64,000 bases of DNA. It comes from an uncultured Acetobacter sp. Lineage in GTDB: Bacteria; Pseudomonadota; Alphaproteobacteria; RF32; CAG-239. Below, piece after piece: positions 23,674 to 56,034 of this stretch; positions within the stretch are counted from its first letter, which is position 1, and each line of letters opens with the position of its first letter. The stretch covers positions 2,565-66,564 of the forward strand of contig CAZRHI010000001.1 in the NCBI GenBank assembly GCA_964599945.1, given 5' to 3'. Position numbers and translations under genes: made by a program. The notes beneath the pieces are model-generated. The model searched no databases, was not told the DNA's origin, and saw only the letters and a list, made by a program, of their open reading frames with translations.

Positions 23674-23750
23674 CAGTATCTCCCATTTAATATCTTGCTT
23701 TGTTTTAGTTTAACATACTTATTTTTCATAGTCAACGTGTCCATTCTTAC

Positions 23751-26700: not shown

Positions 26701-28028
26701 GCAATAATATTTGCAAAAGCATAATTTCTTCCTACAACTGCCCCTTTTTCATCAAATACATATCCGTATGGCGAAATTGTATATTCATTTCCATCTGCAT
26801 TTAAGCTTGTGGAGATACCATTAACACCAATAAACGTATTAAATGATGTGTAATTTAAAAGATTATTTAGAACGCGTCCAAATTCTTTACCTTTACGATC
26901 TATTGCTTTATTTTTTTGCGTGTATCCAAGTTCTGCGCCATCTAACGATATTATTTTTCCATCAACCGCAGCATTCGCACGTAGATTTCCTAAATAATCA
27001 AATATTGGCCCCACAGAGTTTATTGTTCCAATGACAACACCATTATTATTTACAACATTACCTGACGCACCAATTTTCCCTATAATTTGCTGAGATTTTA
27101 TGACATTTCCATTTGATACTAAACGTCCCAAATATTTCCCGTCTAGGGTATTGGCTGTGGCATTAGAACTAACTGCAAACCCCTGTAATTCTCCGTCTTT
27201 GCTGATGATACGATTGCCGACCACAGCAGAGCCAACAACTCTTCCTTTATCAACCACTTCACCATTATAACTTATGCTTCCAAGATAACTGCCATCCAGA
27301 TTAAACGCATATCCACTTTCAACAATATGCCCAATAACATTATTATCCGCATTATACACAAAGCCGTTTGCATGGATATTACCAATGACGGTCTTTTTCA
27401 AATCAACTACTTTTCCGTCTGGCGCAATACTTCCTAAAAAATTCCCCAAATTATCTATTACCATTTTAGAAGATATAAGTTTTCCAACAAGGGTCGTTTT
27501 TTGATCTGTTCCTTGAGGCGCAAAAACATATCCTGTTGCGGTTACATAACCTTTTTTTTCACCAGATAAACTATAGAAATTTCCATCGCCAGACACACGT
27601 CCCACAATTTTCCCTTTATCATCGTAGACAACTCCTGGGGCTATTACTGCACCTAAAACATCATCATTATCATTAACAACAAGTCCGTTTGGTAACACTC
27701 GTCCAACTAAAACATCGTTTAGAGAGGTTACTGTACCGTCATTATTTACCTTTCCTAGCACACTGTTTGTTATTGAAATGGCAACACCTTGTGGAACAAT
27801 TCCGCCAATTAAGATATTATCTTCATTTACAGCAAAACCGTCAGCCGTAATATGTCCAATCAACTCATTATCAAAATCGATAACAGAACCGTCTGGAATT
27901 ACTTTTCCTATTAAATTTCCATCAAAATCTAATGCACTAATATCTGCAGCTTTCAGCTCAGTCGAAACACTTACGAGCAAAAGCACACTCAGTATAATGC
28001 GTTTTAATTTTGATATTTTAATCTGCAA
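23751..28028 (-). CDS. virB10: VirB10/TrbI homolog with a ~1000-aa repeat-rich N-terminal extension
   Basis: The C-terminal ~350 aa carry the VirB10 barrel-domain signature (IPAGSRIIGG...ITWDRIIRPDGIAF...GALGYVDEQ). N-terminus has a signal/TM segment followed by DGxxIGxV repeats and Q/N/T-rich linkers. Confidence 0.8.
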   Translation of the reverse strand: MQIKISKLKRIILSVLLLVSVSTELKAADISALDFDGNLIGKVIPDGSVIDFDNELIGHITADGFAVNEDNILIGGIVPQGVAISITNSVLGKVNNDGTVTSLNDVLVGRVLPNGLVVNDNDDVLGAVIAPGVVYDDKGKIVGRVSGDGNFYSLSGEKKGYVTATGYVFAPQGTDQKTTLVGKLISSKMVIDNLGNFLGSIAPDGKVVDLKKTVIGNIHANGFVYNADNNVIGHIVESGYAFNLDGSYLGSISYNGEVVDKGRVVGSAVVGNRIISKDGELQGFAVSSNATANTLDGKYLGRLVSNGNVIKSQQIIGKIGASGNVVNNNGVVIGTINSVGPIFDYLGNLRANAAVDGKIISLDGAELGYTQKNKAIDRKGKEFGRVLNNLLNYTSFNTFIGVNGISTSLNADGNEYTISPYGYVFDEKGAVVGRNYAFANIIADKGKILAYTSGLGKTESASLNEIAKLTSAGLLLDKNNKLLGNALIADYATDFYGNLLGYTNPSNLIINNQNQTIAKILPDNQIILSNQMRGYAGNSALSISINGDYLGANYPDGQIKTAGEIVGKISSDKYVLDNAGALYGKTLEFGVAVKPDCKFLGVVSDNGDVKNFNGKYIGTVLANNQVVNETEEVIGYIIHPQAVIGDNGEILGVETPLGTVLNYDNRNLGCQDINGYIRNSQNEIVGQIIPSASVMGYDNTIIGEVDFSGKVIDGIGNQAGYIRADEGVYSNNGANIGSIFKYNVAFDDNNTYLGRVDASGTVLSDVGEVLGKVNFDGSVTLENGNSGFALYDLYVYDNNSKTVGYIAKNGTVYSVMGDVKGSIYKGFVLDKKQNLIARGKRDYIIRNKENKIIGYLNLDGSVVNHKNIKVGELNDKGEVVDTSGEIIANAYTLQYYHRETKQETLPEKNNIVSEQQTVLTPTSPSEKENIKDNTIIETNINNQIEEPIISSQTEEPEYNIDRERVNNTMAKHKIVGIAVTPGGKYIGDVYSNNDVIDSHGNIIGSRGKNGEIVDANGNVIGNYQEKDTEKNKSVDKDWWRSIMNGVTASPYNTNNEAVNVGPGGGIGPGGRYNPRRAAIIAQLQNNRRQSMSGKSISSQFDATSYTGWQDNWPGVERSISSLRVDMSNMITADKPIPAVLARSLISLGSAPITAIVERNIYGDMGRNVIIPAGSRIIGGLSNISNGSRFDGTSGGVKLDITWDRIIRPDGIAFILDSSSQTGDAQGRGGGALGYVDEQMLKKYTMPLVGTVATSAMAYLMAANEDATGEVETSKQQAASDARQQFIDKMNSILDEIIESKSNIEAVTYVPAGTRIIIYPMTDLWLKSTKEIEKGEDTLNNTKAENILINRSGNETKVETNNNSNTNNAQNKQGQQGATLVSNNGNGQQKQQKNTAPGAIPPPAADGTVADYPKDDDEMSGDIELF

Positions 28029-28029
28029 A

Positions 28030-31000
28030 TCAGTTCCTCCGATTTTGAGCGACTTCTTCTAACACATAGCCGGAAACTTTGTTTTTTGTATTTACATATG
28101 AGCCATTGCTCTTTAAATATCCTATTTTTCCATTTGTAATACTTAACACACTACCATCTGGCGACAATCGTCCGAGGTATTTTCCGTCATTGCTTAATAT
28201 ATTAGCACCTATTTTATAGGTATGTCCTATAATTTTTCCATTGTTATCTACAACTAAATTTGATGAAATAACTTTTCCTATGACTGAACGTTCTTGATTA
28301 AGAACTTTTCCTTCCATATTTACAAAACCTATCACCTTGTCTTGTTCGTTGATGACAATATCGCCGTCAACAATTTCACCAATTAATTGACCTTTATCGT
28401 TTATAGCTTTCCCTGAATTTAATATCTTGCCTATTCTTACATTATTTTCACCCATAACCGAACCGTCTGCCACAACTTGTCCAATAACACGGCCAGAATA
28501 ATCAAGCACGACTCCTTGTCTCATGATACTATAATTTTTATTGGAATTCCCCCCTGGTAGGGCTGTGGTTAACACACTATCGTTTATATCAATAATATCT
28601 CCTAGAGCATTTAGATAGCCTTTTATATTCCCAAAGACATCAATAACCAAATTTTCTTTTATTACTTCGCCCACGATAACTTTATTAACATCTAGAATAT
28701 GCCCATCTGCGCTGATGAAACCACTTATACTACCGTCAACATCAATGACTTTACCACTTTTGCTAACATATCCTAGGTATGTGCCGTCATATCCTATACC
28801 TACACCTGTTTTGACAACACCACCTTTATATTCACCTTTATCATCAAACATTCTACCTTTGGCATCTACCCAGCCTAATTTTTTACCATACAGATTTATT
28901 ACATCTGCATTATCATTTACAAAACCTATATAATTACCATAAAAATCAATAACATTTCCTTTAGGTAATACTTTTAATGGCTTTCCAGAATTAAACGCAT
29001 AGCCGTCAAAAGTAATTTTATCAACCGCAACTCCTTTAGTATTATAAACATATCCGTCTGCAAAAATTCTACCAACAATCCGTCCATTTGCATCTACTAT
29101 AACATTTTTCTCAGGGAAAATTACCCCTTTTGCTATTTTTTTATTATTAACTAATAGATGATTTAATAAAATTTTTGTTTCAGGAATAACCTCTTGGCTA
29201 TTGTAATTGTATTGAGATAGATTATTGATAAATTCTCCAGATAAGTTATACGCCTGTGTCTTATCCATTATCTGACCAACAATAAAGCCATCTCTGTTTA
29301 GTATTTCTCCTTCCAAATTTGCACAACCAATAATATTTTTCCCAGAACTAACTGTTCCATTAGGACTGATTATGCCCATCATTTCGCCATTATAATATGT
29401 CGCATAACTGGCTTCGTAGACTTTACCAATTAGCTTTCCATCTGGATTTAAAACACCGCCATCTGGATTAACACACCCGATATACTCACCCTCTTCATTA
29501 CGAGCATAGCCGTCCGCACCTACTTTTCCTATAATATTACATTTGTTATCTCGTATCCAGCCAATTTTTATGACATCGCCAACGTATTTTCCGTCTTTAT
29601 CAACGATGCTTCTATCAAATAGCATTCTATAACCAGTTTCCTTATTATCTTTTTTAACATATCCGTCTTTATCAACGTATCCGTAATAAGTACAGCCCCA
29701 ACCAACAGCCATACCGCCAATGACAGCTTTTCCTATAATTTTTTTACCGTCTTTACTACGAATTAAATAATTTGGTAAAACTTTTCCGACTATTTCTTCT
29801 TTATTGTTAATAACATCACCATTATTGCCGATACGCCCAAGGCTATATCCATTAGGGGACATTGCTATCATATCCTTTTTAATGACCGCTCCAATTTTTA
29901 TACCTCTAGATGTTATAACATTTCCGTCTTCATCAACGAATCCAATAACAATATTGTTTAAATCGCGTACTTTTCCGTCGCTTCCCACATACCCGATAAT
30001 GTTACCCTCATCATCTACAACAAGATTTGAATAATTACCAACGACGCCTATAATATCTCCGTTTGCATCTATCGTAAATTCCATATCTTTTCCAGTTCGA
30101 CCAATGATGTTTCCGTCTTTATCTTTAATTGAACCGTCAGATTGTACTGTACCTAAAATATTCCCTTCAAAATCTCGTGCTATTCCGTTTTCATCAATGT
30201 AACCTATTACGGTGCCATTTTCATCTAAGACAGCTTTGCGTTTTATAATATTTAATTCACTATTTCCTTGTGATGATAAACGACCAATAATTTCTCCATT
30301 GCTACCATATACTGTACCGTCTTCAGATACAATGCCTACAATCTTTCCGTCATTACCAATTACTAGCCCATTTTCATCTATATAACCAATAATATTACCA
30401 TTTTCATCAACAGCCACTTTGGCATATTCACCCTCATAACCTATCAAATTACCATTCATATCATGTATTGTGCCATTTTCACCTAAATAGCCAATTAAAT
30501 TACCTTCAAAATCATGAACACTTCCTGTTTCATCAATGTATCCAATAACATTGCCGTTTTCATCATATGCCAAACGTTTGCTTATTCCTGCCGTACCTAA
30601 TATTTCATCTGTGATACAATATACATTTCCAAAATCATCAATAAAACCTAATAACTCATCATTTTCTTGATGTATTTTTTCATCTGTTCCTAAATAACCA
30701 ATGACATTTCCACTTTCATCTTGAGCAAACTCTACTAGTCTACCAACCTTACCAATATTGCGATCATATTCATCAACAATAATGCCTGTGGGGCGAGCTT
30801 TACCTATGTTTCGACCAGAGAAGTTAAATACTGTATTGTTCTCGCCAATATAGCCTATTGTTTTACCACTAGGACTTTGCGCAAGTAAGCCTCTTCTCCC
30901 GACTGTTGCAATTACTTCGTTAGTGTTTTTATAGATTTTGCCATTATCATCAAGAAATCCAACAAGTTTGTTTTTAAAATCTTTAATATTGCCATTATCC

Positions 31001-34000
31001 TCTACAAAACCAATAATTTTCCCGTCAATATCATACGCCAAATTGCTTAAAAGCTTGGTTGTTCCTATATTCTTTCCTGATGAAGATATAACATTTCCAG
31101 ATTCATCTAATTTTCCGATAATACTATTATTACCATTTACTATTTCATTGTTTTCATTAGAATATCCTAAAACCTCTCCATTTAGTCCATATGCAATATT
31201 AGAACTCTTACATGCCGTACATAGTGGTTCACCAACAGCTATTACTTCATTATTTTCATTAACATAGCCAATAACTTTTCCATTGTCATTTCTGGCAATT
31301 TTATTAGTATCCATTACACCAATTTTCTTATTATCATGACTAAGCAATGTTTTGGAAGCAATATCTAATCTACCGATAACATTTCGCTTCAAGGATAAAA
31401 CTGTTCCTGTGTTTTCTACAATACCTATGGGCAACTCTTCCTCACCGCGTAAATACCCTGCATTATCAATATACCCAATAATCGTATTCTTTTGTTGTGC
31501 CATATTGACAACTACACCAACTTTTCCAACGAGTTCGCCTCTGGTGTTTATTATATTATTATTTTCTTTTTTGCCGATAATCTTATTCTTAAAATTCTTA
31601 ACAGTACCGTCTTGTTCTATATATCCAATAGTTTCTCCACTCTTATTATATGCAATATTTCGTTTAACACAACTTTGCCCAATAATGGTGTTACTGGCTT
31701 TGATTACTTTTCCATACTCATCTACAAATCCTATTTTATCGTTATTTTCATTTGCCACATTACCATTTTTATTGATATAACCAAGAATTGTGCCGTCTTT
31801 ATTTATCGCCATTTTTACCTGAGTTTCATCAACTCTACCAATAGCTCTTCCATTTTTGTCTGTAATACTGTTATCAGGCATAACCTTACCAACTAGATTA
31901 TCTTTGAAACCTTTAACTGTTTTTTCAGTTGTAACATAGCCTAGTACTTTCCCACTTCTATCATACGCTAGGTATCTGTATGCTCCTATTTGACCGATAA
32001 TTCTGCCACATGATGCTTTTATATTTCCGTCTTTATCTACAACGCCAAGAATATTTCCCTTCTCATCAATTACGCGTCCTTTTTCATCAATATAGCCGAT
32101 AATTTCACCTTTATCATTTAAGGCGAGTTCGCGTACTTCTCCTGTTTTTCCAATAATATTACCTTTTGCATCAACAATATTACCGTCTTTATCCATTTTG
32201 CCAATAACATTGCCCTTAAAGTCTTTTACTGTGCCATCGGAATCTACATATCCAATTACGTTGCCGTCTCTATCATATGCTAAACGGCGAGATGTTCCTG
32301 CTTTACCTATTACTTTGCCGTCTGAACCTATGATATTGCCATTGCTATCAACAGAACCTAATAGTTTACCATCTTTTCCAATAACACGATTTTTCTCATC
32401 TACAAAACCAATTACTTTTCCATTGGAATCATATGCTAATGTTTTATAATCGCCAGCTTTGCCAATGACCTGACCATTTTTATCAACAATTTCACCTGAA
32501 GCATTCACTTTTCCTATAATGTTGCCCTCAAAATCTACAACATTGCCATTATCATCAATGTATCCGAGTACTTTTCCATCTTTTCCATATGCTAAGCGTT
32601 TTTTAGTAATTGCATTTTTTCCAGTTTGAGAACTTACAATGTTACCATTTTCATCAACAGTTCCTATTTGATTTCCTTTATCATCTAAAACGCGTCCAGC
32701 CTTATCAACATAGCCGATAACATTACCGTCTTTATCTAATGCTAGTCTTGCTGGCGAACCTGCTTTACCGATGACGTTTCCATTTTTATCAACAATATTA
32801 CCGTCTTTATTCATTTTCCCGATAACATTACCTTTAAAGTCTTTTACTGTGCCGTCTTTATCCACATAGCCAATGACGTTACCGTCAGCATCATAGGCTA
32901 ACCGACGAGATGTTCCAACCTTTCCGATTATTTCGCCTTTATTGTTTTTTGTATTTTTTAGGATATTGCCATTTCCGTCTACACGTCCGATAACATTGCC
33001 TTGCTTATCAAGAACCCGTCCATTTCTATCAACAAAGCCGATAACATTGCCATTTTTATCTAGAGCTAACCGCGCTGGCACACCTGCTTTTCCGATAACA
33101 TTGCCATTTTTATCTATAATGTTACCCTTTTTATCCATTTTACCAATGGTATTACCATTGAAATCTTTAACTGTGCCGTCTTTTTCAATATACCCTATCA
33201 CGTTACCGTCTTTGTCATAGGCTAAACGACGCGCTTCTCCAACTTTTCCGATAACCTCATCCTTATCTTTTAATTCTTTTACGACATTTCCATTCTCATC
33301 AGCATAACCAACGAGATTTCCTTGACTATCAAACACTCTCCCTTTTTCATCAACATAGCCAATAACTTTACCATCTTTATCTATAGCTAATTTAGAAAGA
33401 GTGCCTGCTTTGCCAATCACATCCCCATTTTCATCAATAATATTACCGTCTTTATCCATTTTGCCAATGACTTTACCATTGAAGTCTTTAACGGTGCCGT
33501 CGGAATCAACATAACCTATCACGTTGCCGTCTTTGTCATGGGCTAAACGACGGGCTTCCCCGACTTTACCAATAACATTATCATCTTCATTTAGCTCTTT
33601 AACAATATTACCATTTTCGTCAACATAGCCAATAAGATTCCCTTTTTTATCAAGTGCACGTCCTTTTTCATCAACATAACCTACGACTTTACCATTTTTA
33701 TCCAATGCTAATTTGGCAGATGCGCCAGCTTTGCCAACAATATTCCCTTTTTCGTCAATAATATTGCCGTCTTTATCCATTTTTCCGATGACTTTACCAT
33801 TGAAATCTTTAACCGTGCCGTCGGAATCAACATACCCTATCACGTTGCCGTCTTTGTCATAAGCTAAACGATGTTCTTCCCCGATTTTACCAACAATACC
33901 GTCATCTTCTTCGGCAAATTTGACAACTTTACCGTCGGAATCAACATATCCTATAACGCTTCCTAGCTCATCTATAACACGCCCTTTCTCATCAATATAG

Positions 34001-37000
34001 CCGATAACATTACCGTCTTCATCAAGTGCTAATCGACGCTCTTCACCTGCTTTGCCGATGATATTCCCATTTTTATCTACGATATTGCCATTTTCATCGA
34101 TTTTTCCAATTACATTACCGCTAAAATCTTTAACAGTACCATCTTCATCTACATAACCAATGACCTTACCGTCGGAATCATATGCCAAGCGACGAGCTTC
34201 GCCAGCTTTGCCGATAACTGTTCCTTTGGCTTCAATGATATTCCCATTTTTGTCTGTATATCCTATTTGGTTGCCCTTTTCATCAAATACATGACCTTTT
34301 TCATCAATATAACCAATAACATTTCCTGCTTTATCTTTTGCCAATTTGGCTAGTTCGCCAGCTTTACCGATGACGTTTCCATTTTTATCCACAATATTAC
34401 CATTTTCATCAACTTTTCCGATAACATTACCTTTAAAGTCTTTAACTGTACCGTCGGAATCAACATAACCAATTACATTCCCGTCAGAATCATAAGCCAA
34501 ACGGCGACTTTCTCCTGCAAAACCTAAAATTTCACCTTTTATTGGCTCTTCGGCATATTTGACGATATTACCTTCTTTATCTGCATAGCCGATTTCTTTG
34601 CTATTTTCATCAAATACACGCCCTTTTTCATCAACATAGCCAACAACTTTACCATTTTTATCTAAAGCTAATTTAGCATTCTTTCCAGCTTTACCGATAA
34701 CGTTACCATTTTTATCTACAATATTGCCATTTTCATCTACTTTACCAATAACATTGCCTTTGAAATCTTTAACTGTGCCGTCAGCATCAATATACCCTAT
34801 CACATTACCGTCGGAATCATAAGCTAAGCGACGCTCTTCACCAACTTTCCCGACAACTGTGCCTTTGGCCGCAATAATATTTCCATTTTTACCAGTATAA
34901 CCTATTTGGTTACCATTCTTATCAAATACTCGCCCTTTCTCATCAACATAACCTATAACTTTACCCGCTTTGTCTAGAGCTAACTTGGCATTACTTCCTG
35001 CTTTGCCGATGATGTTACCATTTTTATCTATAATATTACCATTTTTATCTACTTTACCAATAACCTTACCATTAAAATCTTTTACTGTGCCGTCTTTTTC
35101 AACATAACCAATTACATTACCGTCTTTATCTAGGGCTAAACGACGTGTTTCTCCCACTTTTCCAATAACAGGAGCTTTGGTGGCAACGATATTTCCGTTT
35201 TTATCCATATGTCCGATTTGATTTCCTTTTTCATCAAACACACGACCTTTTTCATCTACATAGCCAATAACTTTGCCATTTTTATCAAGAGCTAACTTAG
35301 CTGTTTTCCCTGCTTTGCCAATAATATTACCTTTTTTATCTACGATATTGCCGTCTTTATCCATTTTACCAACAACGTTGCCTTTGAAGTCTTTAACCGT
35401 GCCGTCGGAATCAACATAACCTATCACATTACCATTTTTATCATACGCTAAACGGCGATTTTCTCCTACTTTGCCGATAATTGGAGCTTTAGGTGCATAG
35501 ATATTACCATTTTTATCAGTCTGTCCGATGAGATTTCCTTTTTCATCAAACACACGACCTGTTTCGTCTACATAGCCAATGACATTACCATTTTTATCCA
35601 ATGCTAATTTAGCATTACTTCCTGCTTTACCGATGATGTTACCATTTTTATCTACGATATTTCCATTTTTATCCACTTTACCAATAGCGTTACCTTTGAA
35701 ATCTTTAACTGTGCCGTCTTTTTCAACATAACCTATCACATTACCATTTTTATCATATGCTAAGCGACGGCTTTCTCCTACTTTGCCGATACGTGGATCT
35801 TTAGTTGCTATTATATTACCATTTTTATCAGTCTGCCCAATTTGATTTCCTTTTTCATCAAACACACGCCCTGTTTCGTCTACATAGCCAATCACTTTTC
35901 CATTTTTATCTAATGCTAATTTAGCATTACTTCCTGCTTTACCGATGATGTTACCATTTTTATCAATAATATTACCGTCTTTATCCGTTTTACCGATAAT
36001 ATTACCATTGAAGTCTTTAACGGTTCCGTCTGTATCAATATACCCTATCACATTACCATTTTCATCTAAAGCTAAACGACGCGTTTCCCCGATTTTTCCA
36101 ATAATTTCGCCATTCTTTTCTATATCGGCAAATTTAACAACATTACCGTTATCATCAATATACCCTATTGCTTTTCCCTCTTTGTCATAAACTAATTTAT
36201 GACTATCACCATTAGTACCAATTTTACTTTCTGATAATCTGTAAACATTGCCATTTTCATCTACATATCCAACAATATTACCGTCTTTATCAACCACGCT
36301 ATTGTCTGGCATAACGATACCTATAACATTGCCATTTTCATCTAGTGCTACACGTCCTGCTGAGGTTACTCTCCCGATAACATTACCGTCTTTATCTATA
36401 ACCTCGCCATTTGCATTAAGTCGTCCAATAATTTTTTTAGGATTATTTATGTCTACAACTGTTCCGTCTGGCAATACCCTACCAATAATTTTACCTTCAT
36501 CATCATAAACATATCCTGCTTCTACAGCTTTTCCGATAACCTCACCAGCTTCATTAACAATCGTCCCGTCGGATAAAACTTTCCCTATTATTTCTCCTTG
36601 CGCATCAACAACTGTCCCGTCTGTTCTTACATAACCAATCAAATTACCGTCTTTATCAAACGCTAAACGCATATTTTGCGCCACACCTATTATATTCCCC
36701 TCTGCGTCAATAATTAACCCGTCTTCATTAACTTTTCCGATAATCCGACCATCTTTATCATGCACATTTCCAGCTTCATCAATATAACCAATAACTTCTC
36801 CATTTGGACCTATAGCTAATCTATGTGCGCTTATGGAACTTCCGTCAAACGAGCAACTCCCGGTGGTACTATTACATATTTGGCGGTTATCTTCTGGGTA
36901 TACAGCACTCCCTCGGATACTGACTTCTTCAGATTTTGCATTATCTCTACTTAATCTTGTTTCATACCAGATTACTTTGAAATTATTTTGAACATTACCT

Positions 37001-37485
37001 GCCAGATGTGGAGACCATGAGATTAAAACATTACATGTTTCATCGCCACTTAAATCTCTGTTTTTGCATTTATCACGAAACTCAAAACCGTCTTCTGTTT
37101 CTTCTACTAATTCTACTCGTTCAATATGGATACTTTCTGTTCCGTCTGTTCCTATCGTTAAAATGCTCTGATTTTGTTCGTCAATTCCTAGAACAAATTT
37201 GTGCATATTAATTTGTTCAGGAGTAATTCTTATTGGCTTCTTATTTTCTGATGTGTTTTCATCTTCTACACCAATAAATAAATTTTCTTCTTCCTTATCC
37301 AGATTAGGCACAATATCTTGATTTTCTGTAAAAACAGGTGCTTCTTCCTCTGGATTATATGTATCATCATCGGAGCCTAACATGAGCAACCCAAACAGAA
37401 ACAAAACACCTGCAATAATTCCTATTATAAGAATTATTCTTCGGGTTTTTTGTTCGTATTCTTCAAAACGGGTATTATTGCTCAT
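28030..37485 (-). CDS. giant (3151 aa) single-pass membrane protein composed of DxxGxx(I/V)G repeats; T4SS-associated and function unknown
   Basis: Uninterrupted ORF. N-terminal transmembrane anchor (IILIIGIIAGVLFLFGLLML), then about 3000 aa of beta-type repeats with no identifiable enzymatic domain. Its start codon overlaps the virB9 stop (ATGA) and its stop abuts the virB10 start. Confidence 0.75.
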   Translation of the reverse strand: MSNNTRFEEYEQKTRRIILIIGIIAGVLFLFGLLMLGSDDDTYNPEEEAPVFTENQDIVPNLDKEEENLFIGVEDENTSENKKPIRITPEQINMHKFVLGIDEQNQSILTIGTDGTESIHIERVELVEETEDGFEFRDKCKNRDLSGDETCNVLISWSPHLAGNVQNNFKVIWYETRLSRDNAKSEEVSIRGSAVYPEDNRQICNSTTGSCSFDGSSISAHRLAIGPNGEVIGYIDEAGNVHDKDGRIIGKVNEDGLIIDAEGNIIGVAQNMRLAFDKDGNLIGYVRTDGTVVDAQGEIIGKVLSDGTIVNEAGEVIGKAVEAGYVYDDEGKIIGRVLPDGTVVDINNPKKIIGRLNANGEVIDKDGNVIGRVTSAGRVALDENGNVIGIVMPDNSVVDKDGNIVGYVDENGNVYRLSESKIGTNGDSHKLVYDKEGKAIGYIDDNGNVVKFADIEKNGEIIGKIGETRRLALDENGNVIGYIDTDGTVKDFNGNIIGKTDKDGNIIDKNGNIIGKAGSNAKLALDKNGKVIGYVDETGRVFDEKGNQIGQTDKNGNIIATKDPRIGKVGESRRLAYDKNGNVIGYVEKDGTVKDFKGNAIGKVDKNGNIVDKNGNIIGKAGSNAKLALDKNGNVIGYVDETGRVFDEKGNLIGQTDKNGNIYAPKAPIIGKVGENRRLAYDKNGNVIGYVDSDGTVKDFKGNVVGKMDKDGNIVDKKGNIIGKAGKTAKLALDKNGKVIGYVDEKGRVFDEKGNQIGHMDKNGNIVATKAPVIGKVGETRRLALDKDGNVIGYVEKDGTVKDFNGKVIGKVDKNGNIIDKNGNIIGKAGSNAKLALDKAGKVIGYVDEKGRVFDKNGNQIGYTGKNGNIIAAKGTVVGKVGEERRLAYDSDGNVIGYIDADGTVKDFKGNVIGKVDENGNIVDKNGNVIGKAGKNAKLALDKNGKVVGYVDEKGRVFDENSKEIGYADKEGNIVKYAEEPIKGEILGFAGESRRLAYDSDGNVIGYVDSDGTVKDFKGNVIGKVDENGNIVDKNGNVIGKAGELAKLAKDKAGNVIGYIDEKGHVFDEKGNQIGYTDKNGNIIEAKGTVIGKAGEARRLAYDSDGKVIGYVDEDGTVKDFSGNVIGKIDENGNIVDKNGNIIGKAGEERRLALDEDGNVIGYIDEKGRVIDELGSVIGYVDSDGKVVKFAEEDDGIVGKIGEEHRLAYDKDGNVIGYVDSDGTVKDFNGKVIGKMDKDGNIIDEKGNIVGKAGASAKLALDKNGKVVGYVDEKGRALDKKGNLIGYVDENGNIVKELNEDDNVIGKVGEARRLAHDKDGNVIGYVDSDGTVKDFNGKVIGKMDKDGNIIDENGDVIGKAGTLSKLAIDKDGKVIGYVDEKGRVFDSQGNLVGYADENGNVVKELKDKDEVIGKVGEARRLAYDKDGNVIGYIEKDGTVKDFNGNTIGKMDKKGNIIDKNGNVIGKAGVPARLALDKNGNVIGFVDRNGRVLDKQGNVIGRVDGNGNILKNTKNNKGEIIGKVGTSRRLAYDADGNVIGYVDKDGTVKDFKGNVIGKMNKDGNIVDKNGNVIGKAGSPARLALDKDGNVIGYVDKAGRVLDDKGNQIGTVDENGNIVSSQTGKNAITKKRLAYGKDGKVLGYIDDNGNVVDFEGNIIGKVNASGEIVDKNGQVIGKAGDYKTLAYDSNGKVIGFVDEKNRVIGKDGKLLGSVDSNGNIIGSDGKVIGKAGTSRRLAYDRDGNVIGYVDSDGTVKDFKGNVIGKMDKDGNIVDAKGNIIGKTGEVRELALNDKGEIIGYIDEKGRVIDEKGNILGVVDKDGNIKASCGRIIGQIGAYRYLAYDRSGKVLGYVTTEKTVKGFKDNLVGKVMPDNSITDKNGRAIGRVDETQVKMAINKDGTILGYINKNGNVANENNDKIGFVDEYGKVIKASNTIIGQSCVKRNIAYNKSGETIGYIEQDGTVKNFKNKIIGKKENNNIINTRGELVGKVGVVVNMAQQKNTIIGYIDNAGYLRGEEELPIGIVENTGTVLSLKRNVIGRLDIASKTLLSHDNKKIGVMDTNKIARNDNGKVIGYVNENNEVIAVGEPLCTACKSSNIAYGLNGEVLGYSNENNEIVNGNNSIIGKLDESGNVISSSGKNIGTTKLLSNLAYDIDGKIIGFVEDNGNIKDFKNKLVGFLDDNGKIYKNTNEVIATVGRRGLLAQSPSGKTIGYIGENNTVFNFSGRNIGKARPTGIIVDEYDRNIGKVGRLVEFAQDESGNVIGYLGTDEKIHQENDELLGFIDDFGNVYCITDEILGTAGISKRLAYDENGNVIGYIDETGSVHDFEGNLIGYLGENGTIHDMNGNLIGYEGEYAKVAVDENGNIIGYIDENGLVIGNDGKIVGIVSEDGTVYGSNGEIIGRLSSQGNSELNIIKRKAVLDENGTVIGYIDENGIARDFEGNILGTVQSDGSIKDKDGNIIGRTGKDMEFTIDANGDIIGVVGNYSNLVVDDEGNIIGYVGSDGKVRDLNNIVIGFVDEDGNVITSRGIKIGAVIKKDMIAMSPNGYSLGRIGNNGDVINNKEEIVGKVLPNYLIRSKDGKKIIGKAVIGGMAVGWGCTYYGYVDKDGYVKKDNKETGYRMLFDRSIVDKDGKYVGDVIKIGWIRDNKCNIIGKVGADGYARNEEGEYIGCVNPDGGVLNPDGKLIGKVYEASYATYYNGEMMGIISPNGTVSSGKNIIGCANLEGEILNRDGFIVGQIMDKTQAYNLSGEFINNLSQYNYNSQEVIPETKILLNHLLVNNKKIAKGVIFPEKNVIVDANGRIVGRIFADGYVYNTKGVAVDKITFDGYAFNSGKPLKVLPKGNVIDFYGNYIGFVNDNADVINLYGKKLGWVDAKGRMFDDKGEYKGGVVKTGVGIGYDGTYLGYVSKSGKVIDVDGSISGFISADGHILDVNKVIVGEVIKENLVIDVFGNIKGYLNALGDIIDINDSVLTTALPGGNSNKNYSIMRQGVVLDYSGRVIGQVVADGSVMGENNVRIGKILNSGKAINDKGQLIGEIVDGDIVINEQDKVIGFVNMEGKVLNQERSVIGKVISSNLVVDNNGKIIGHTYKIGANILSNDGKYLGRLSPDGSVLSITNGKIGYLKSNGSYVNTKNKVSGYVLEEVAQNRRN
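32700..36100 (-). repeat. about 11 tandem near-identical copies of a ~315-bp (105-aa) coding repeat inside the giant gene
   Basis: A recurring protein unit ...RRLAYDKDGNVIGYVDSDGTVKDFKGNVIGKVDENGNIVDKNGNIIGKAG-AKLALDKNGKVIGYVDEKGRVFDEKGNQIG... Identical nucleotide strings (e.g. ccgtcggaatcaacataacctatcac) recur at about 315-bp spacing. Antisense ORFs in the track show a repeated PITLPSLS pattern from the same repeats. Confidence 0.8.
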
Positions 37486-39767
37486 TGTATCCTAACCACA
37501 CTACAAAAGATTCCGTTACGACCTAATTGACTACAGATATTATCCCCGTCTTCAAGTGATTTGATTGGACCAACGCGTAAATGGAAAAGCTCTTTTCCTT
37601 GTCCATCTGCCGCAGTATCTACGGAATAGAAAGGTTGATACGACCCAATAGCTGCTGAATTATGCTTGGAAATATCATTCCATAATTTTTCCAAATTATT
37701 TACATTTTCATCTGTTCCTAATTCTATAGAAATATTACTTTCATTTGTTCCATTAAACGATTTTCCTGAGCGAAATTCTTTTAATAGAGCTTCCGTTTCT
37801 GCAGAAATCATACTTTTTTCTTGATCTTCAATTCTTGGCGCAATCAAGACTGGACTCGAATTATTTTGAGATGCCCCTATTTGCGCTATATTTGCATTAT
37901 TGGTTTGCCCCGCTTGAGGGGATATTGCAGAAGCTGATTGCTTATCTGCTTGATAGGTAACTCCAACATTTACACCTTGATTATTATAATCTGGAGTTAT
38001 TAGCTCTGCTTGTCCTGCTCTTATATCATATTGACCTGTTAAGACCTCTTTTGATTGCTGTGGTGTTCCGCTAATCGGCATTACCTTTGGTAACGAATCG
38101 ATTTGCGCCATATTATTTTGCCCTAATGTTGTCGATGTGTTTCCAGCATTTTGAGGTAATGTATTAAAAAAACTACTATTATCAAAAAATGACTGCAAAC
38201 CACCGCTATTAGCAGATGCGCCTTGAGTACCATTTGCTGTGTTGGCTTTGCCATCTCCACTCATCACATTATTACTGGTATTGCCTGAAAGGCCTGCTGG
38301 AAACATACCACCTGATGCACCTTGTCCACCATTTGCACCGTTGGTGTTGTAGCCATTTCCACCTACGGCATTATTACTGGTATTTCCTGAAAAACCTGCT
38401 GGAAGCATTCCACCTGATGCACCTTGTCCACTATTTACGCCATTGGGATTGTAGCTATTTCCACCTACGGCATTATTACTGGTATTTCCGAAAAAACCTG
38501 CTGGGAACATACCACCTGATGTTCCTTGTCCGCTATTTATGACGTTAGTATTGTAGCCATTTCCACCAACCGCTCCATTCGCACTTCCTTGGAAATTTGT
38601 AGACGACGGCATATTAGATGTTGCTCCTTCATAAACATTTTCTACTCGCCCTGTTTCATTATTTACAGAGTTCTCACCACCTTGGGTTGGATTGGAAGCA
38701 TAACTCGATTGTAAATCCCATTCATTTGTTTTGGCATATATTGTATTTTCTAACCCATCGGAATCTGCGCGACGCAACTTTAAGCACACAAGCCTTTTAC
38801 CGCTACGCATAACCATATCCCCCATTCCTTCAACAATAATCAAACGATTATTTGGACCAGCCGCACGGAAACCTACTGGCGTTTCTGAACGTTCCACAAT
38901 TAACGTAACAATCGGACGTTGTACTGCTGTTAAAGCTTTTTCACCTAAATCTATATATGTAAAGATGTTATCTCGCCACACACGTTCTGGCGCAATAACA
39001 ATATCATCAGGATTAGGAACATAAACCTCTATATCAAAACGAAATTTTGTTGGGTCAACAGGGATTTTTTCTATCCAATCTTCTTTTTGCAAATCCCGCG
39101 TATATGTTGAGGCAGCACTAGTTCCGTCTTGCGAATAATTACTTCCACCACTAGCATATCCTCCGCCACATCCACCAGCGGAGCCATTAGCCGCACTTTG
39201 CTTCTTTTTTACAACTTCAATATCAATAATCGCGTTTGTAATTCTATCTGTATTTATAGTTTCACTTTGTACATAAAAAACATATTTATTTCCTGAGCGT
39301 CCAAACACAATCATATTTGTATCAACACCAACAAACTGAGAGGCTTCAGGATATACCATTAAACTTGAAGGACCTTGAATTTCAGCGGTAAAAGATTGTC
39401 CATCTCCTAAATAGACATTTTCCACCACTTCCCAACTTGGAAAGTTAACCAACGTATACATACCCTCACGAACACGAATTGGCAACACCATTTCTGGTGT
39501 CCAGTAATATTTAGTATACCCTGGTCGGCTTTGTCCTTCTCCCATATGTTGCATAGGGTCTTTCCACGCGCTTTGCATCATTCCTAAAGACCCACTTCCG
39601 AGATAATTCAAATTAGTCGCAGCATAATTGCCTTGAGCTTGGTCTGCATTCTGATCTAATACACTTTTAGTAACCTGCGCATAAGCAAGACTCCCTGTTA
39701 ACTGTAACAGAAAAATTGCAGATAATAAATAACTATTTTTTCTCATAACACAAACCTTAAATTTCAA
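37482..39767 (-). CDS. virB9: VirB9/CagX/TrbG homolog (761 aa) with G/N/S-rich tandem repeats and a SPOR-like C-terminal domain
   Basis: Signal peptide. VirB9 N-domain (YTLVNFPSWEVVENVYLGDG...MIVFGRSGNKYVFYVQ) and VirB9 C-domain (...IVIAPERVWRDNIFTYIDLGEK...). Three ~37-aa Gly/Asn repeats. C-terminus ...LFHLRVGPIKSLEDGDNICSQLGRNGIFCSVV resembles a SPOR peptidoglycan-binding fold. Confidence 0.7.
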   Translation of the reverse strand: MKFKVCVMRKNSYLLSAIFLLQLTGSLAYAQVTKSVLDQNADQAQGNYAATNLNYLGSGSLGMMQSAWKDPMQHMGEGQSRPGYTKYYWTPEMVLPIRVREGMYTLVNFPSWEVVENVYLGDGQSFTAEIQGPSSLMVYPEASQFVGVDTNMIVFGRSGNKYVFYVQSETINTDRITNAIIDIEVVKKKQSAANGSAGGCGGGYASGGSNYSQDGTSAASTYTRDLQKEDWIEKIPVDPTKFRFDIEVYVPNPDDIVIAPERVWRDNIFTYIDLGEKALTAVQRPIVTLIVERSETPVGFRAAGPNNRLIIVEGMGDMVMRSGKRLVCLKLRRADSDGLENTIYAKTNEWDLQSSYASNPTQGGENSVNNETGRVENVYEGATSNMPSSTNFQGSANGAVGGNGYNTNVINSGQGTSGGMFPAGFFGNTSNNAVGGNSYNPNGVNSGQGASGGMLPAGFSGNTSNNAVGGNGYNTNGANGGQGASGGMFPAGLSGNTSNNVMSGDGKANTANGTQGASANSGGLQSFFDNSSFFNTLPQNAGNTSTTLGQNNMAQIDSLPKVMPISGTPQQSKEVLTGQYDIRAGQAELITPDYNNQGVNVGVTYQADKQSASAISPQAGQTNNANIAQIGASQNNSSPVLIAPRIEDQEKSMISAETEALLKEFRSGKSFNGTNESNISIELGTDENVNNLEKLWNDISKHNSAAIGSYQPFYSVDTAADGQGKELFHLRVGPIKSLEDGDNICSQLGRNGIFCSVVRIQ
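38240..38615 (-). repeat. three tandem ~111-bp repeats encoding (GNTSNNAVGGNGYNTNGVNSGQGASGGMFPAGFS) within virB9
   Basis: Protein-level repeat seen in the translation. An antisense ORF at 38216-38542 shows a repeated HLMHLVHYLRHW pattern from the same DNA repeats. Confidence 0.7.
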
Positions 39768-40523
39768 TTACTTTCGTTCTCTTTGTTTATATTCAACAAC
39801 AGTAAACCCTAGCGGATTTTTCAACCTTTCACCAAACCTCACCTTTTTGCTTCGATATCTTATGGTCATATTTACAACCCAAACACTTATTTGAGGCGTT
39901 TCCCTTTCAGGTGTCATATCTTCTACTTGAAATTCGACTTCCCACCCCATACCATTTTTTTGTACACCAACTTCTTTGGCTGATTTAATCTTTATGTTAC
40001 GGGTTAAATTATACTGACGAATCTGCTCCATAGCTCTTTTAGCAACATTTTCTCGGAAATCACTATAAACCTTCGTGCTTGACATCTCTTGAAGATTGCT
40101 ACCTGGATCCCAACGCTCTTTCATCTCCGCCTCATCATTAACAAAGGTATTGCGAAGAAGAATATACTCTCTTACAAACATTTCTGTTAAATATTTATAA
40201 TCATAAATCTTTTTGACTTCTTCAATATGGTAAATTTGCTCTTTCTTATCAGCAAAACTAAACAAATATGGTTCAACTCGATACAATGGAATCGTCGTCA
40301 TAATCACATATGTTAGGATAAAATTGCAACACAAACTTACAGCAAAAACTATTGCAAACGCACGAGCCGTCCACAAATAACGTTTTTCTGTTGCATTTTC
40401 AACAATCGTATCCGCAGATGCTTTTCGCCGTTGACGAATCGGCTGAGGTGTTGGTGCCGCTTTTGCACCATTCCCCTCTAACAGTACTCGTTTCGTATTT
40501 TCTGAAGAAATTTGTTCTACCAT
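39768..40523 (-). CDS. virB8: VirB8
   Basis: 251 aa, bitopic with an N-terminal cytoplasmic tail and one TM. NTF2-like C-domain with the conserved NPLGF motif. Confidence 0.8.
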   Translation of the reverse strand: MVEQISSENTKRVLLEGNGAKAAPTPQPIRQRRKASADTIVENATEKRYLWTARAFAIVFAVSLCCNFILTYVIMTTIPLYRVEPYLFSFADKKEQIYHIEEVKKIYDYKYLTEMFVREYILLRNTFVNDEAEMKERWDPGSNLQEMSSTKVYSDFRENVAKRAMEQIRQYNLTRNIKIKSAKEVGVQKNGMGWEVEFQVEDMTPERETPQISVWVVNMTIRYRSKKVRFGERLKNPLGFTVVEYKQRERK

Positions 40524-40545
40524 TCCCTATTTCCTATAGTAGCTA

Positions 40546-40734
40546 TTAGCTCATAGCTTTAAACCAATCTGGCAGTGTTTTAGGTAGTTCAACTTCTATA
40601 CACGCACAAGGAGAAAGCTTTAATTCGTATATATCTTTACCAATTCCTACTGGTTCTGGTTCATAATATGTCCCTAAAACATTGCACGCAGCCAAAATTA
40701 AAATTGCAAAAACTAAAATCAACGCTTTATACAT
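40546..40734 (-). CDS. virB7: VirB7-like small outer-membrane lipoprotein
   Basis: 62 aa with a lipobox ILAAC, at the canonical VirB7 position between the virB8 paralogs and virB9. Confidence 0.5.
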   Translation of the reverse strand: MYKALILVFAILILAACNVLGTYYEPEPVGIGKDIYELKLSPCACIEVELPKTLPDWFKAMS

Positions 40735-40878
40735 AATTCTCCCTCTTTTTTAAAATAATCCTTTCTTATAATTAGAACTTTTATTTTTAAAAGTCTAACG
40801 AGAAAATGAAATGCGTTGACTTATCAACAGGCTAATTTTCTCCTCTGATATTATAATACTCAAATATTTAAGATTATT

Positions 40879-41679: not shown

Positions 41680-41698
41680 TTTGATTTATTTTCCTCTT

Positions 41699-46750: not shown

Positions 46751-46767
46751 GGTTTTCTCCTTTACTT

Positions 46768-48126: not shown

Positions 48127-48139
48127 TTTCGCTAGCTCC

Positions 48140-48826: not shown

Positions 48827-48831
48827 TTCTA

Positions 48832-51075: not shown

Positions 51076-51119
51076 ATCAGTTCTCCCAATAATTTCTTTT
51101 TATATATACACTAAATAGT

Positions 51120-52190: not shown

Positions 52191-52256
52191 AATGTTCCTC
52201 CTAAAATAATATTTTATGGTTTATGATAGCATATTTTTCATATTTTGTCAATATTT

Positions 52257-54990: not shown

Positions 54991-55074
54991 CGCGTTTATC
55001 CTTTTGCTGATTTGCCTTTCTTTAAGTATACGGCAAAAATTCTTTCAAAACTGTTAATTTCAAAATTAAAAAAA

Positions 55075-55482: not shown

Positions 55483-55492
55483 GACAATTCTC

Positions 55493-55831: not shown

Positions 55832-55927
55832 AATACCTATTCCTCCCAAGTTATTGTAATTATTATAGCACAAATATTAAAAATATTCCAGTAAAAAGAC
55901 CTTTTCCGTACTTTAAATAACCATATG

Positions 55928-55956: not shown

Positions 55957-55985
55957 AAATTTCACACTTATTTTTTATACAAAAA

Positions 55986-56013: not shown

Positions 56014-56034
56014 CTTTTGCGTTTTATCAGGTTA

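What the first reader, a model, noticed from the sequence alone, without database searches (positions are those of the whole stretch)
32700..36100. Near-identical 315-bp tandem DNA repeats inside the giant gene: substrate for length or antigenic variation
About 11 consecutive copies of a 105-aa unit are conserved at the nucleotide level (long identical strings recur with ~315-bp periodicity). In-frame recombination between copies would expand or contract the protein without disrupting it, the mechanism used by H. pylori cagY to tune T4SS function and evade immunity. Such arrays are also prone to short-read assembly collapse, so the true copy number may differ.
Basis: seen in the sequence. Interest (0 to 1): 0.65.

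Follow-up and report, generated by a model that had tools for sequence, protein, structure and literature searches.

The report
Old eleven-copy domain amplification in secretion-system giant
A real but old and well-diverged eleven-fold tandem duplication of a ~104-residue beta-flower module lengthens a giant membrane-anchored protein encoded inside a type IV secretion operon of an uncultured gut alphaproteobacterium; it records past in-frame expansion and shows no sign of being a fast-switching, cagY-like variation device.

Summary
The tandem array exists (TRF 32634-36104, period 312, 10.9 copies), but the copies are not near-identical. Pairwise nucleotide identity among the 11 units is 63-86% (mean 73%). 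Only 1 of 55 pairs reaches 85%, and the longest shared exact string is 53 nt. Synonymous sites are heavily diverged (median dS 1.2, youngest pair 0.41) and every unit is under purifying selection (omega ~0.15).

The array lies in a 3151-aa gene (28030-37485, minus strand) between virB9 and virB10 of a VirB-type T4SS operon. The protein has an N-terminal TM helix, a predicted PapD/ASH-like Ig domain, then ~28 beta-flower modules (Pfam PF21785, E 1e-235).

Orthologues in about 20 related gut Alphaproteobacteria MAGs are 2078-2518 aa. The window's 11 units all correspond to one unit in most of them, so this is a lineage-specific 1-to-11 amplification (+~1050 aa). The same site expanded independently in 7 other species.

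Seven strains of a sister species all carry exactly the same gene length, although that species has a single unit at the site. No same-species comparison was available. The array is a weak recombination substrate (94 in-frame exact repeats of at least 16 nt). Assembly collapse is unlikely.

The parts
32602..36081 (-). Tandem array proper: 11 units (U1-U11, aa 469-1628) of 102-109 aa (modal 104 aa / 312 nt). All are co-orthologous to one single unit in most related species.
   Evidence: TRF. Unit table and identity matrix. Best-hit analysis and NJ tree. dN/dS. Exact-repeat census.
31978..32601 (-). Units U12 and U13 (aa 1629-1836). They have the same periodicity but are older, and are 1:1 orthologues of the second and third units of relatives (81% and 84% aa identity to L003). 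They are not part of the amplification.
28030..37485 (-). Giant gene, 3151 aa. About 28 beta-flower modules of ~104 aa (52-aa structural half-period) fill aa ~221-3144.
   Evidence: ORF list and translation. Pfam Bflower_2 E 1.4e-235 with 36 stretches, Bflower E 2.6e-129, DUF3659 E 4.5e-108. Unit HMM gives 31 matches along the protein. AF2 of aa 450-790: pLDDT 85.7, all-beta.
37375..37440 (-). N-terminal transmembrane helix (about aa 16-37, RRIILIIGIIAGVLFLFGLLMLG), preceded by a short K/R-rich stretch. The predicted topology is N-in, with the rest of the protein outside the cytoplasm.
   Evidence: Sequence. The AF2 model shows a helix at aa 5-37. The topology is inferred from the positive-inside rule.
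36901..37233 (-). Predicted Ig-like beta-sandwich (aa ~85-195) resembling PapD-like/ASH/MSP domains. It carries conserved Cys140, Cys151 and Cys204 and follows a disordered linker (aa 40-80).
   Evidence: AF2 model, pLDDT 72 overall and 80-92 in this segment. Foldseek PDB hits 2e6j (TM 0.71 on target) and 6fvi, prob 1.00. Invariant columns.
37482..39767 (-). virB9 homologue (CagX domain plus C-terminal SPOR domain). Its stop overlaps the giant gene's start by 4 nt. It contains its own 102-nt x3 tandem repeat at 38267-38567.
23751..28028 (-). virB10 homologue (TrbI domain at aa 1130-1325) with a signal-peptide-like N-terminus and ~1000 aa of diverged beta-flower repeats. It starts 2 nt after the giant gene's stop, with a GGAGG 8 nt upstream of its start codon.
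22693..56412 (-). The T4SS operon that carries the giant gene, all on the minus strand. In transcription order: three virB2-like genes (56035-56412, 55493-55873, 55075-55557), virB3 (54700-54990), virB4 (52257-54710), four unknown ORFs, a 1683-aa ORF (41699-46750), two virB8 genes (40879-41679, 39768-40523), virB9, the giant gene, virB10, virB11 (22693-23673).
   Evidence: Pfam scans. The virB2-like and virB3 assignments come from reading the small-ORF sequences and were not tested with a family model. No terminator-like sites in 27.5-38.5 kb.

Best explanation
The array is the relic of a lineage-specific, stepwise, in-frame tandem amplification. One ~104-residue beta-flower module went from one copy to eleven. 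The protein is a giant inner-membrane-anchored protein co-transcribed with virB9 and virB10 in a VirB-type T4SS of an uncultured gut alphaproteobacterium.

Shown:
- Relatives carry the same gene at the same place.
- Eleven window units map to one unit in 12 of 20 orthologues examined.
- The extra ~1050 aa account for the whole length difference.
- The units have since diverged (nucleotide identity 63-86%, dS 0.4 to above 1) under purifying selection.
- Variable residues concentrate in the DxxG turn positions and in the inter-unit linker.

Inferred:
- The duplications arose by unequal recombination or replication slippage between neighbouring units. A unit is a multiple of 3 nt and a self-contained fold, so every such event gives a readable, foldable protein.
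- The units nearest the N-terminus (U1-U3) are the youngest. U11 is closest to the ancestral copy.
- Functionally, the added modules lengthen, or add binding valency to, a periplasmic or surface-exposed beads-on-a-string stalk that works with the VirB9/VirB10 core.
- Length is adjusted at one hot spot on a between-species timescale. It is not switched within populations.
For: - Array and divergence.
- Orthologues lie between virB9 and virB10 in L001-L021 and are 2078-2518 aa against 3151 aa here.
- BLASTP places the surplus between aa ~220 and ~1306 relative to L003.
- Each of U1-U11 has its best match inside the window (0.70-0.84) rather than in any other genome (0.66-0.77). U12, U13 and the other flanking units have their best matches in orthologues (0.81-0.86).
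- In the NJ tree, U1-U6, U8 and U9 are monophyletic and U11 sits next to the single-copy clade. U7 and U10 are placed unstably near the base, outside both. L014's three units form their own clade.
- dN/dS: median pS 0.62, dS 1.23, omega 0.15; U1/U2 dS 0.41. Window versus L003 orthologous flanks are saturated at pS 0.75-0.77. The amplification therefore post-dates that split but is old.
- No significant gene-conversion tracts.
- Independent tandem expansions at the same site in L006, L008, L009, L011, L013, L014 and L019.
- Length change is seen only between species at ~83% protein identity, not at 90-96% and not among 7 strains of one species.
- Beta-flower identity.
- Beta-flower arrays are fused to VirB10/TrbI and to CpaB/RcpC domains in hundreds of other proteins. 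This fits a role as an envelope-spanning spacer.
Against: - No second genome of the window's species spans the array, so current copy-number stability in this species is untested.
- The sister species used for the strain comparison has only one unit at the hot spot, so it has little substrate for recombination.
- 94 in-frame exact repeats of at least 16 nt exist. In H. pylori a 33-bp identical repeat was enough for an in-vivo deletion (PMC2194252), so occasional events cannot be excluded.
- Three unit pairs show marginal excess concordance (uncorrected P 0.001-0.004).
- The functional reading (stalk, spacer or adhesive valency) is inferred from architecture and gene context only. No beta-flower protein has a tested function in the literature I could search.
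- All comparison sequences are short-read MAGs, which could under-report repeat numbers.
Confidence: 0.72

Rival explanations
1. This is the first reader's reading: an active contingency locus. Ongoing in-frame recombination between units expands and contracts the protein within populations. As with H. pylori cagY, this would tune T4SS function or evade host immunity.
For: - 94 exact in-frame direct repeats of at least 16 nt, against ~0.13 per control block.
- Recurrent independent expansions at the same site in 7 other species, including a 93%-matching 312-nt duplication in L013.
- The gene sits in a T4SS operon of a host-associated bacterium next to a repeat-bearing VirB10.
- cagY deletions have used identical repeats as short as 33 bp.
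- In the relative with the closest giant-protein N-terminus (76%, P0001), three independent short-read contigs end at or just inside the start of the array. This could reflect unresolved high-identity repeats there.
Against:
- dS is at least 0.41 for every pair, so no unit has been created or homogenised recently.
- No significant conversion tracts.
- Only three identical tracts of at least 30 nt.
- Purifying selection acts on every unit (omega ~0.15).
- Gene length is identical in 7 strains of a sister species and in species pairs at 90-96% identity.
- From general knowledge of homologous recombination, frequency falls steeply with sequence divergence and with shorter stretches of perfect identity.
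Confidence: 0.13
2. The array is an ancestral multi-copy array that most relatives lost. Its units look more like each other than like orthologues because of past concerted evolution, not because of lineage-specific amplification.
For: - Several lineages (L006, L008, L009, L011, L013, L014, L019) also have extra units or half-units at the same site.
- U7 and U10 are placed unstably in the tree.
- A distant clade has much shorter orthologues of 587-606 aa, so length has moved in both directions across the family.
Against: - Twelve of 20 orthologues examined have exactly one unit at the site, and their flanking units are in conserved 1:1 order.
- Expansions in other lineages differ in unit type (156-nt half-units versus 312- or 327-nt units) and cluster by species in the tree.
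- The loss scenario needs many independent precise losses.
- There is no conversion signal.
Confidence: 0.1
3. The copy number is an assembly artefact. The array would be collapsed or inflated by mis-assembly of repeats.
For: - Repeats are a classic cause of mis-assembly.
- A Logan short-read contig 100% identical to the window ends inside the neighbouring virB9 102-nt repeat.
- No independent assembly of the array was found.
Against: - Every unit is distinct. Units differ at 14-37% of positions and the longest shared string is 53 nt, so reads of 100 nt or more place uniquely.
- The reading frame is intact over 9.4 kb.
- Unit-to-unit divergence has the signature of real evolution: excess synonymous change and conserved structural residues.
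- Short-read MAGs of relatives assemble through comparable or more similar arrays.
- The sample that produced the broken contig is fragmentary everywhere.
Confidence: 0.04

Closest known systems
Helicobacter pylori CagY (Cag T4SS; repeat regions FRR and MRR)
   Same: Very large repeat-rich protein encoded next to the VirB9 homologue in a T4SS locus of a host-associated bacterium. It has many direct DNA repeats whose recombination always stays in frame, and protein length can change without loss of the reading frame (PMC2194252; window).
   Different: - CagY is itself the VirB10 homologue. Here the TrbI/VirB10 domain is in the next gene.
- The documented cagY events used identical tracts of 33 and 156 bp and a 393-bp tandem repeat, and the gene varies within hosts and between clonal isolates. 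Here the longest identical tract is 53 nt, dS is at least 0.41, and no within-species variation is seen in the one species that could be examined.
- The repeat fold here is all-beta beta-flower.
Beta-flower fold families PF21784/PF21785 with DUF3659 (Pfam clan CL0395; Durairaj et al. 2023, PMC10584680)
   Same: Strong HMM matches far above the gathering scores. The [DNEQ]xxG motif at hairpin tips is visible in every sub-repeat, and the model is all-beta.
   Different: The fold was described from small, mostly single-domain proteins of ~96 residues, some of them lipoproteins, with no function assigned. Here ~28 modules are strung in one 3151-aa membrane-anchored protein inside a T4SS operon. 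I found no paper linking the fold to T4SS.
VirB10/TrbI proteins with long N-terminal beta-flower arrays (uncharacterised, mostly Alphaproteobacteria MAGs)
   Same: Same repeat type, same secretion-system context and a similar size range. Hits of 1500-2290 aa carry PF21784/PF21785 plus PF03743, and the window's own VirB10 is one of them.
   Different: The giant protein has no TrbI domain. It has its own TM anchor and a PapD-like Ig domain at the N-terminus, so it is a separate component and not a VirB10.
Giant tandem-domain surface proteins with lineage-specific domain amplification (e.g. Ig-like-domain adhesins such as SiiE, LapA and Bap-type proteins; from general knowledge)
   Same: The unit is ~100 aa, an autonomous beta domain encoded by a repeat that is a multiple of 3 nt. 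Copy number differs among lineages, and the units form a beads-on-a-string extension.
   Different: Those are usually T1SS substrates or cell-wall-anchored proteins with Ig-like folds, and they often have near-identical repeats that vary between strains. This protein is inner-membrane-anchored, lies in a T4SS operon, has a beta-flower fold, and its copies are diverged.
Legionella DotG/IcmE (VirB10 homologue with a variable pentapeptide-repeat region; from general knowledge, not tested here)
   Same: A T4SS core component whose repeat region differs in length among species, consistent with a spacer or channel-length role.
   Different: Different repeat type and fold. The repeat is inside the VirB10 homologue itself.

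Membership tests
Tandem DNA repeat array (operational definition) | At least 2 head-to-tail copies with a consistent period, above chance | tested here: met
   TRF gives period 312, 10.9 copies, score 2227. There are 94 exact repeats of at least 16 nt against 0.13 per control block.
   Mean identity is 73%, range 63-86%. One of 55 pairs reaches 85%. TRF gives 74% matches.
Beta-flower (Pfam PF21785/PF21784, clan CL0395) | HMM score above the curated gathering threshold | tested here: met
   Bflower_2 scores 766 bits (cut-off 38) with 36 stretches. Bflower scores 424.8 bits (cut-off 25).
Beta-flower (Pfam PF21785/PF21784, clan CL0395) | Short antiparallel beta-hairpin 'petals' with a semiconserved [DNEQ]xxG turn motif | tested here: met
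   DxxG/NxxG recurs about every 10 residues in all units. The AF2 model is all-beta with short strands and pLDDT 85.7.
Beta-flower (Pfam PF21785/PF21784, clan CL0395) | Closed 4-, 5- or 6-fold symmetric shallow barrel | tested here: inconclusive
cagY-type recombination-driven T4SS variation | The repeat-bearing protein is the VirB10 homologue (C-terminal TrbI/VirB10 domain) | tested here: not met
   There is no TrbI match in the giant protein. TrbI is in the adjacent 1425-aa protein.
cagY-type recombination-driven T4SS variation | Extraordinary density of identical direct repeats of at least 16 bp, all giving in-frame products (Aras 2003) | tested here: met
   94 pairs of at least 16 nt, and all 94 spacings are multiples of 3. 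They are short, however: 3 pairs of at least 30 nt, maximum 53 nt.
cagY-type recombination-driven T4SS variation | Long identical repeat tracts (about 100 bp or more) of the kind seen in documented rearrangements | tested here: not met
   The longest identical tract is 53 nt. The cagY events cited used identical tracts of 33 and 156 bp and a 393-bp tandem repeat.
cagY-type recombination-driven T4SS variation | Size or sequence variation among clonal isolates or within hosts | not testable with these tools
   No second assembly of the window's species spans the array. In a sister species, 7 strains have identical length, but that species has only one unit at the site.
VirB/VirD4-type (P-type) T4SS locus | Core genes virB4, virB8, virB9, virB10 and virB11 co-oriented in one cluster | tested here: met
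   Pfam matches to CagE_TrbE_VirB, VirB8 (twice), CagX, TrbI and T2SSE. virB2-like (three copies) and virB3-like small ORFs were identified by sequence inspection only.
VirB/VirD4-type (P-type) T4SS locus | virB6 and the coupling protein virD4 | tested here: inconclusive
   The 1683-aa ORF in the virB6 position has no Pfam hit. No VirD4/TraG-type protein was found among the window ORFs scanned. It may lie outside the window.

The most novel reading that the evidence does not exclude
The giant TM-anchored, PapD-like-domain plus beta-flower-array protein encoded between virB9 and virB10 is a previously unrecognised structural component of a T4SS lineage that is widespread in uncultured gut Alphaproteobacteria. 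It could be a stalk, sheath or adhesive fibre. Its length would be set by module number at one hot spot, and in the window's species the 11-unit array would still vary between strains and change secretion or host contact. That would make it a functional analogue of CagY built from a fold with no known function.
Probability: 0.15. Interest if true: 0.7.

Novelty: new variant of a known kind. Interest (0 to 1): 0.36.

Why it matters
The array itself is an ordinary outcome of tandem domain duplication, and it is too diverged to be the hypervariable, collapse-prone locus that was proposed. That lowers its priority as a candidate for antigenic or phase variation.

The context is more interesting. 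The beta-flower fold was defined only from predicted structures in 2023 and has no assigned function. Here it forms ~28 tandem modules in a conserved T4SS-operon protein, and it is also fused to VirB10 and to CpaB/RcpC in many other bacteria. This gives the fold a testable functional setting as a periplasm- or envelope-spanning spacer of secretion and pilus machines.

Length differences of 587 to 3151 aa among lineages, concentrated at one hot spot, provide a natural series for testing whether module number matters. The organisms are uncultured commensals of the human, mouse and ruminant gut, whose T4SS biology is not covered in the literature I could search.

Tried and rejected
Searches for a second copy of the window's species across the array all failed:
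- The metagenome scan with the giant's N-terminus gave at best 77% identity.
- The exact giant protein is not on record.
- Exact VirB10, with either L or M as first residue, is not on record.
- Exact VirB8 and VirB11 found Logan contigs from SRR9335148 and SRR9130108 that are 100% identical to the window but stop before the giant gene.
- Two protein searches, with the N-terminus and with the array, found nothing above 76% and 50% identity.

Structure comparison:
- Foldseek of the three-unit model against PDB gave only local hairpin-repeat matches (Rhs, designed propellers) with TM at or below 0.14, so it was uninformative.
- A PDB sequence-profile search gave only weak WD40 and Rhs hits.

Other checks:
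- The gene-conversion permutation found nothing significant after correction.
- Other Pfam hits on the giant protein (RHS_repeat, POLO_box, HTH_16, Scramblase and others) have no stretch passing on its own. I treat them as repeat-composition cross-hits.
- On the opposite strand there are only two ORFs of 81-92 aa, promoter-like sites at chance level and no terminators, so I rejected any overlapping feature.
- I considered that the giant gene and virB10 might be one gene split by a stop. I rejected this because virB10 is in another frame, has its own GGAGG and start codon, and has a signal-peptide-like N-terminus.
- Literature searches for RF32/T4SS and for beta-flower/T4SS found nothing relevant.

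Full report
**1. Observation**

Tandem Repeats Finder reports one large array at 32634-36104: period 312 nt, 10.9 copies, 74% matches, 3% indels, score 2227. It lies wholly inside a 3151-codon ORF on the minus strand, 28030-37485.

Anchoring on the recurring RRLA[YL]D motif, I cut the protein into units. U1-U11 cover aa 469-1628, which is window 32602-36081. Seven units are 104 aa and the rest 102-109 aa. U12 and U13, with the same period, follow down to 31978.

The signal is not chance. The 3486-nt array holds 94 maximal exact direct-repeat pairs of at least 16 nt (35 of at least 20, 17 of at least 25, 3 of at least 30, maximum 53). Fifteen equal-sized control blocks of the window average 0.13. 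All 94 spacings are multiples of three.

'Near-identical' is not:
- Codon-aligned nucleotide identity among U1-U11 is 63-86%, mean 73%.
- The median longest shared string per unit pair is 17 nt.

**2. What the gene is**

Pfam assigns the protein overwhelmingly to the beta-flower families: Bflower_2 PF21785, E 1.4e-235, 36 stretches; Bflower PF21784, E 2.6e-129; DUF3659, E 4.5e-108. An HMM of the 13 units finds 31 matches from aa 221 to 3144, so the whole protein is periodic, not only the array.

AlphaFold2 on aa 450-790, with the shifted units as the alignment, gives pLDDT 85.7. The model is purely beta with a 52-residue structural period: one 13-residue strand followed by four short strands. 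No solved structure resembles it (TM at or below 0.14; sequence profile). This agrees with the original description of the fold as known from predictions only (PMC10584680).

The N-terminus has three parts:
- a TM helix (aa ~16-37; the model shows a helix at 5-37);
- a disordered linker (aa 40-80);
- a confidently modelled beta-sandwich (aa 85-195) whose best PDB matches are PapD-like/ASH/MSP Ig folds (2e6j, TM 0.71 on the target; 6fvi), with three conserved cysteines.

**3. Context**

The gene sits in a co-oriented T4SS operon. Its order is virB2-like x3, virB3, virB4, four ORFs without Pfam hits, a 1683-aa ORF, virB8 x2, virB9 (CagX plus SPOR), the giant gene, virB10, virB11.
- virB9's stop overlaps the giant gene's start by 4 nt.
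- virB10 starts 2 nt after the giant gene's stop, with a GGAGG 8 nt upstream of its start codon.
- No terminator-like site occurs in 27.5-38.5 kb, and nothing of note is on the opposite strand.
- The virB10 product itself carries ~1000 aa of diverged beta-flower repeats ahead of its TrbI domain.
- The locus is chromosomal: yidC and a ribosome-associated GTPase gene (possibly engB) lie beside it, and dnaA-dnaN-recF are at 12.4-16.4 kb.

**4. Relatives**

A scan of one genome per species with VirB9 returned 21 loci. All are uncultured gut Alphaproteobacteria MAGs from human, mouse, ruminant and other hosts, and some carry mislabelled names. VirB9 identity is 57-82%, and none is the window's species.

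Wherever the contig extends past virB9, a gene of the same kind follows it; in every contig that spans that gene, virB10 comes next. The 15 complete copies from that scan are 2094-2518 aa, and a 16th from the metagenome scan (L032) is 2078 aa. BLASTP shows the window protein is collinear with them at both ends. It carries ~1050 surplus residues between aa ~220 and ~1306.

A more distant clade has a complete 587-606-aa orthologue in the same position. Family length therefore ranges from about 590 to 3151 aa.

**5. Origin of the array**

- Each of U1-U11 has its best match in another window unit (0.70-0.84 aa identity) rather than in any unit of any other genome (0.66-0.77). For 10 of the 11, the best foreign hits are the single unit at aa ~474-575 of relatives; U7's are later units.
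- U12, U13 and the other flanking units are clear 1:1 orthologues of relatives' units (0.81-0.86).
- In an NJ tree, U1-U6, U8 and U9 form one clade and U11 sits beside the single-copy clade. U7 and U10 fall near the base, outside both. U12 and U13 fall in the position-2 and position-3 orthologue clades. L014's three units form their own clade.

The simplest reading is a lineage-specific amplification from one unit to eleven. U11 is nearest the original and the N-terminal-side units are the youngest.

TRF on the orthologues shows independent tandem expansions at the same site in seven other species:
- L006, L008, L009 and L019, built mainly from 156-nt half-units (L008 also scores at period 312);
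- L011, 156-nt half-units x6.5, 80% matches;
- L013, 312 nt x1.9, 93% matches;
- L014, 327 nt x3, 81% matches.

Twelve other orthologues show none. This position is an evolutionary hot spot for module gain.

**6. Age and dynamics**

Nei-Gojobori estimates among U1-U11 give median pS 0.62, dS 1.23, dN 0.21 and omega 0.15. The youngest pair, U1/U2, has dS 0.41. Orthologous flanks between the window and L003 or L021 are saturated at pS 0.75-0.77. The amplification is therefore younger than that split but old in absolute terms, and every copy has been kept under purifying selection.

A Sawyer-type permutation of variable sites finds no pair significant after correction. The best is U2/U8, P 0.001, which is 0.055 after multiplying by 55. 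Amino-acid variability concentrates in the x positions of the DxxG turns, one hairpin tip, and the inter-unit linker, which also varies in length.

Population evidence has limits. A sister species was recovered in eight independent human-gut assemblies representing seven distinct strains, which differ by 29-240 substitutions in the gene. All have exactly 6585 nt with no indel. That species has one unit at the hot spot, so the test is weak.

Among species pairs:
- 96% identity (L017/L018): no length change;
- 90% identity (L012/L015): a 1-aa difference;
- ~83% identity: L009/L007 differ by +163 aa and L014/L016 by +210 aa, both at the hot spot, while L003/L021 have the same length.

Module number therefore changes on a between-species timescale.

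**7. Comparison with cagY**

Aras et al. (PMC2194252) defined the cagY phenomenon by three features. It has an extraordinary density of identical direct repeats of at least 16 bp. Rearrangements invariably stay in frame. Size changes are documented in clonal isolates and infected animals, and they used identical tracts of 156 bp and 33 bp and a 393-bp tandem repeat.

The window array meets the first two criteria qualitatively. It lacks long identical tracts and shows no sign of recent events. The protein also lacks the VirB10 domain that makes CagY a core component. It works somewhat like cagY only in the sense that in-frame unit gain has happened. It is not a member of that class on present evidence.

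**8. Assembly**

All units are distinct and the frame is intact. The substitution pattern is biological, with excess synonymous change and conserved structural residues. Collapse or inflation is therefore unlikely.

Logan short-read contigs 100% identical to the window exist (SRR9335148, SRR9130108). They are short and end before the giant gene, one of them inside the virB9 102-nt repeat. They neither confirm nor contradict the array.

**9. Function (inferred)**

The protein appears to be N-in and membrane-anchored, with an Ig-like domain and a long string of small beta modules. It is translationally coupled to VirB9 and VirB10. Beta-flower arrays are recurrently fused to VirB10/TrbI and to CpaB/RcpC of Tad pili in other bacteria. 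This points to an envelope-spanning or surface-reaching spacer or scaffold associated with the T4SS outer complex.

Adding ten modules would lengthen it or add binding valency. No experiment or publication addresses this.

**10. Verdict**

The array is an old, diverged, selectively maintained domain amplification, which is ordinary as a repeat. It sits in an unusual and undescribed T4SS-associated beta-flower giant protein. Interest is modest for the array and higher for the protein family.

Noticed in passing
window 38267-38567 (minus strand, inside virB9): A second tandem repeat: 102 nt x3 with 86% matches, more similar than the giant-gene units. It encodes a Gly/Asn/Ser-rich 34-aa unit between the CagX and SPOR domains of VirB9. 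A Logan short-read contig (L035, SRR9335148) that is 100% identical to window 38460-50523 ends inside it.
   Followed up: partly
window 37482-39767 (minus strand): The VirB9 homologue carries a C-terminal SPOR (peptidoglycan-binding) domain (E 3e-4, at the gathering score). To my knowledge this is not a usual VirB9 feature.
   Followed up: no
window 23751-28028 (minus strand): The VirB10 homologue is 1425 aa, with a signal-peptide-like N-terminus and ~1000 aa of diverged beta-flower repeats before the TrbI domain. Database hits show hundreds of VirB10-domain proteins of 1500-2290 aa with the same repeat type.
   Followed up: partly
proteins P0060, P0063, P0065 and others: Beta-flower repeats are also fused to CpaB/RcpC (PF16976, SAF) of Flp/Tad pilus systems, for example in Gilvimarinus. 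The fold therefore recurs as a module of different envelope-spanning machines.
   Followed up: no
L037 5583-5585, L038 end, L039 end: In the relative with the closest giant-protein N-terminus (76%; cluster of 74 sequences), the orthologue has an in-frame TAA at codon 452. The same frame continues straight into an RRLAYD unit. Two other independent contigs end within 1-2 nt of that point. This could be a nonsense mutation or split gene, or an assembly-graph branch at the start of the array.
   Followed up: partly
L040-L042: A more distant clade (49% identity) has a complete 587-606-aa orthologue (TM, N-terminal domain, a few beta-flowers) directly after virB9. Family length therefore spans about 590-3151 aa.
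   Followed up: partly
window 36901-37233 (minus strand; giant protein aa ~85-195): Predicted PapD-like/ASH/MSP Ig-fold domain with three conserved cysteines between the TM anchor and the repeats. It is a possible docking domain.
   Followed up: partly
window 41699-52190 (minus strand): Five ORFs inside the T4SS operon (1683, 452, 228, 747 and 356 aa) have no Pfam match above the curated cut-off. The 1683-aa ORF sits where virB6 would be expected.
   Followed up: no
window 55075-56412 and 39768-41679 (minus strand): Gene multiplication within the T4SS: three virB2-like pilin paralogues and two virB8 paralogues. This recalls the duplicated components of Rickettsiales vir-homologue systems (general knowledge).
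   Followed up: no
window 58151-62835 (plus strand): A divergently oriented cluster with TcpQ-like, secretin and PilO (PAP_PilO) proteins. It looks like a type IVb or thin-pilus-like system next to the T4SS.
   Followed up: no
window 12433-16429 (plus strand): dnaA-dnaN-recF, with mfd and recG nearby. The window therefore includes the chromosomal dnaA region, and cumulative GC skew turns at about 16 kb and about 58 kb, following gene orientation.
   Followed up: no
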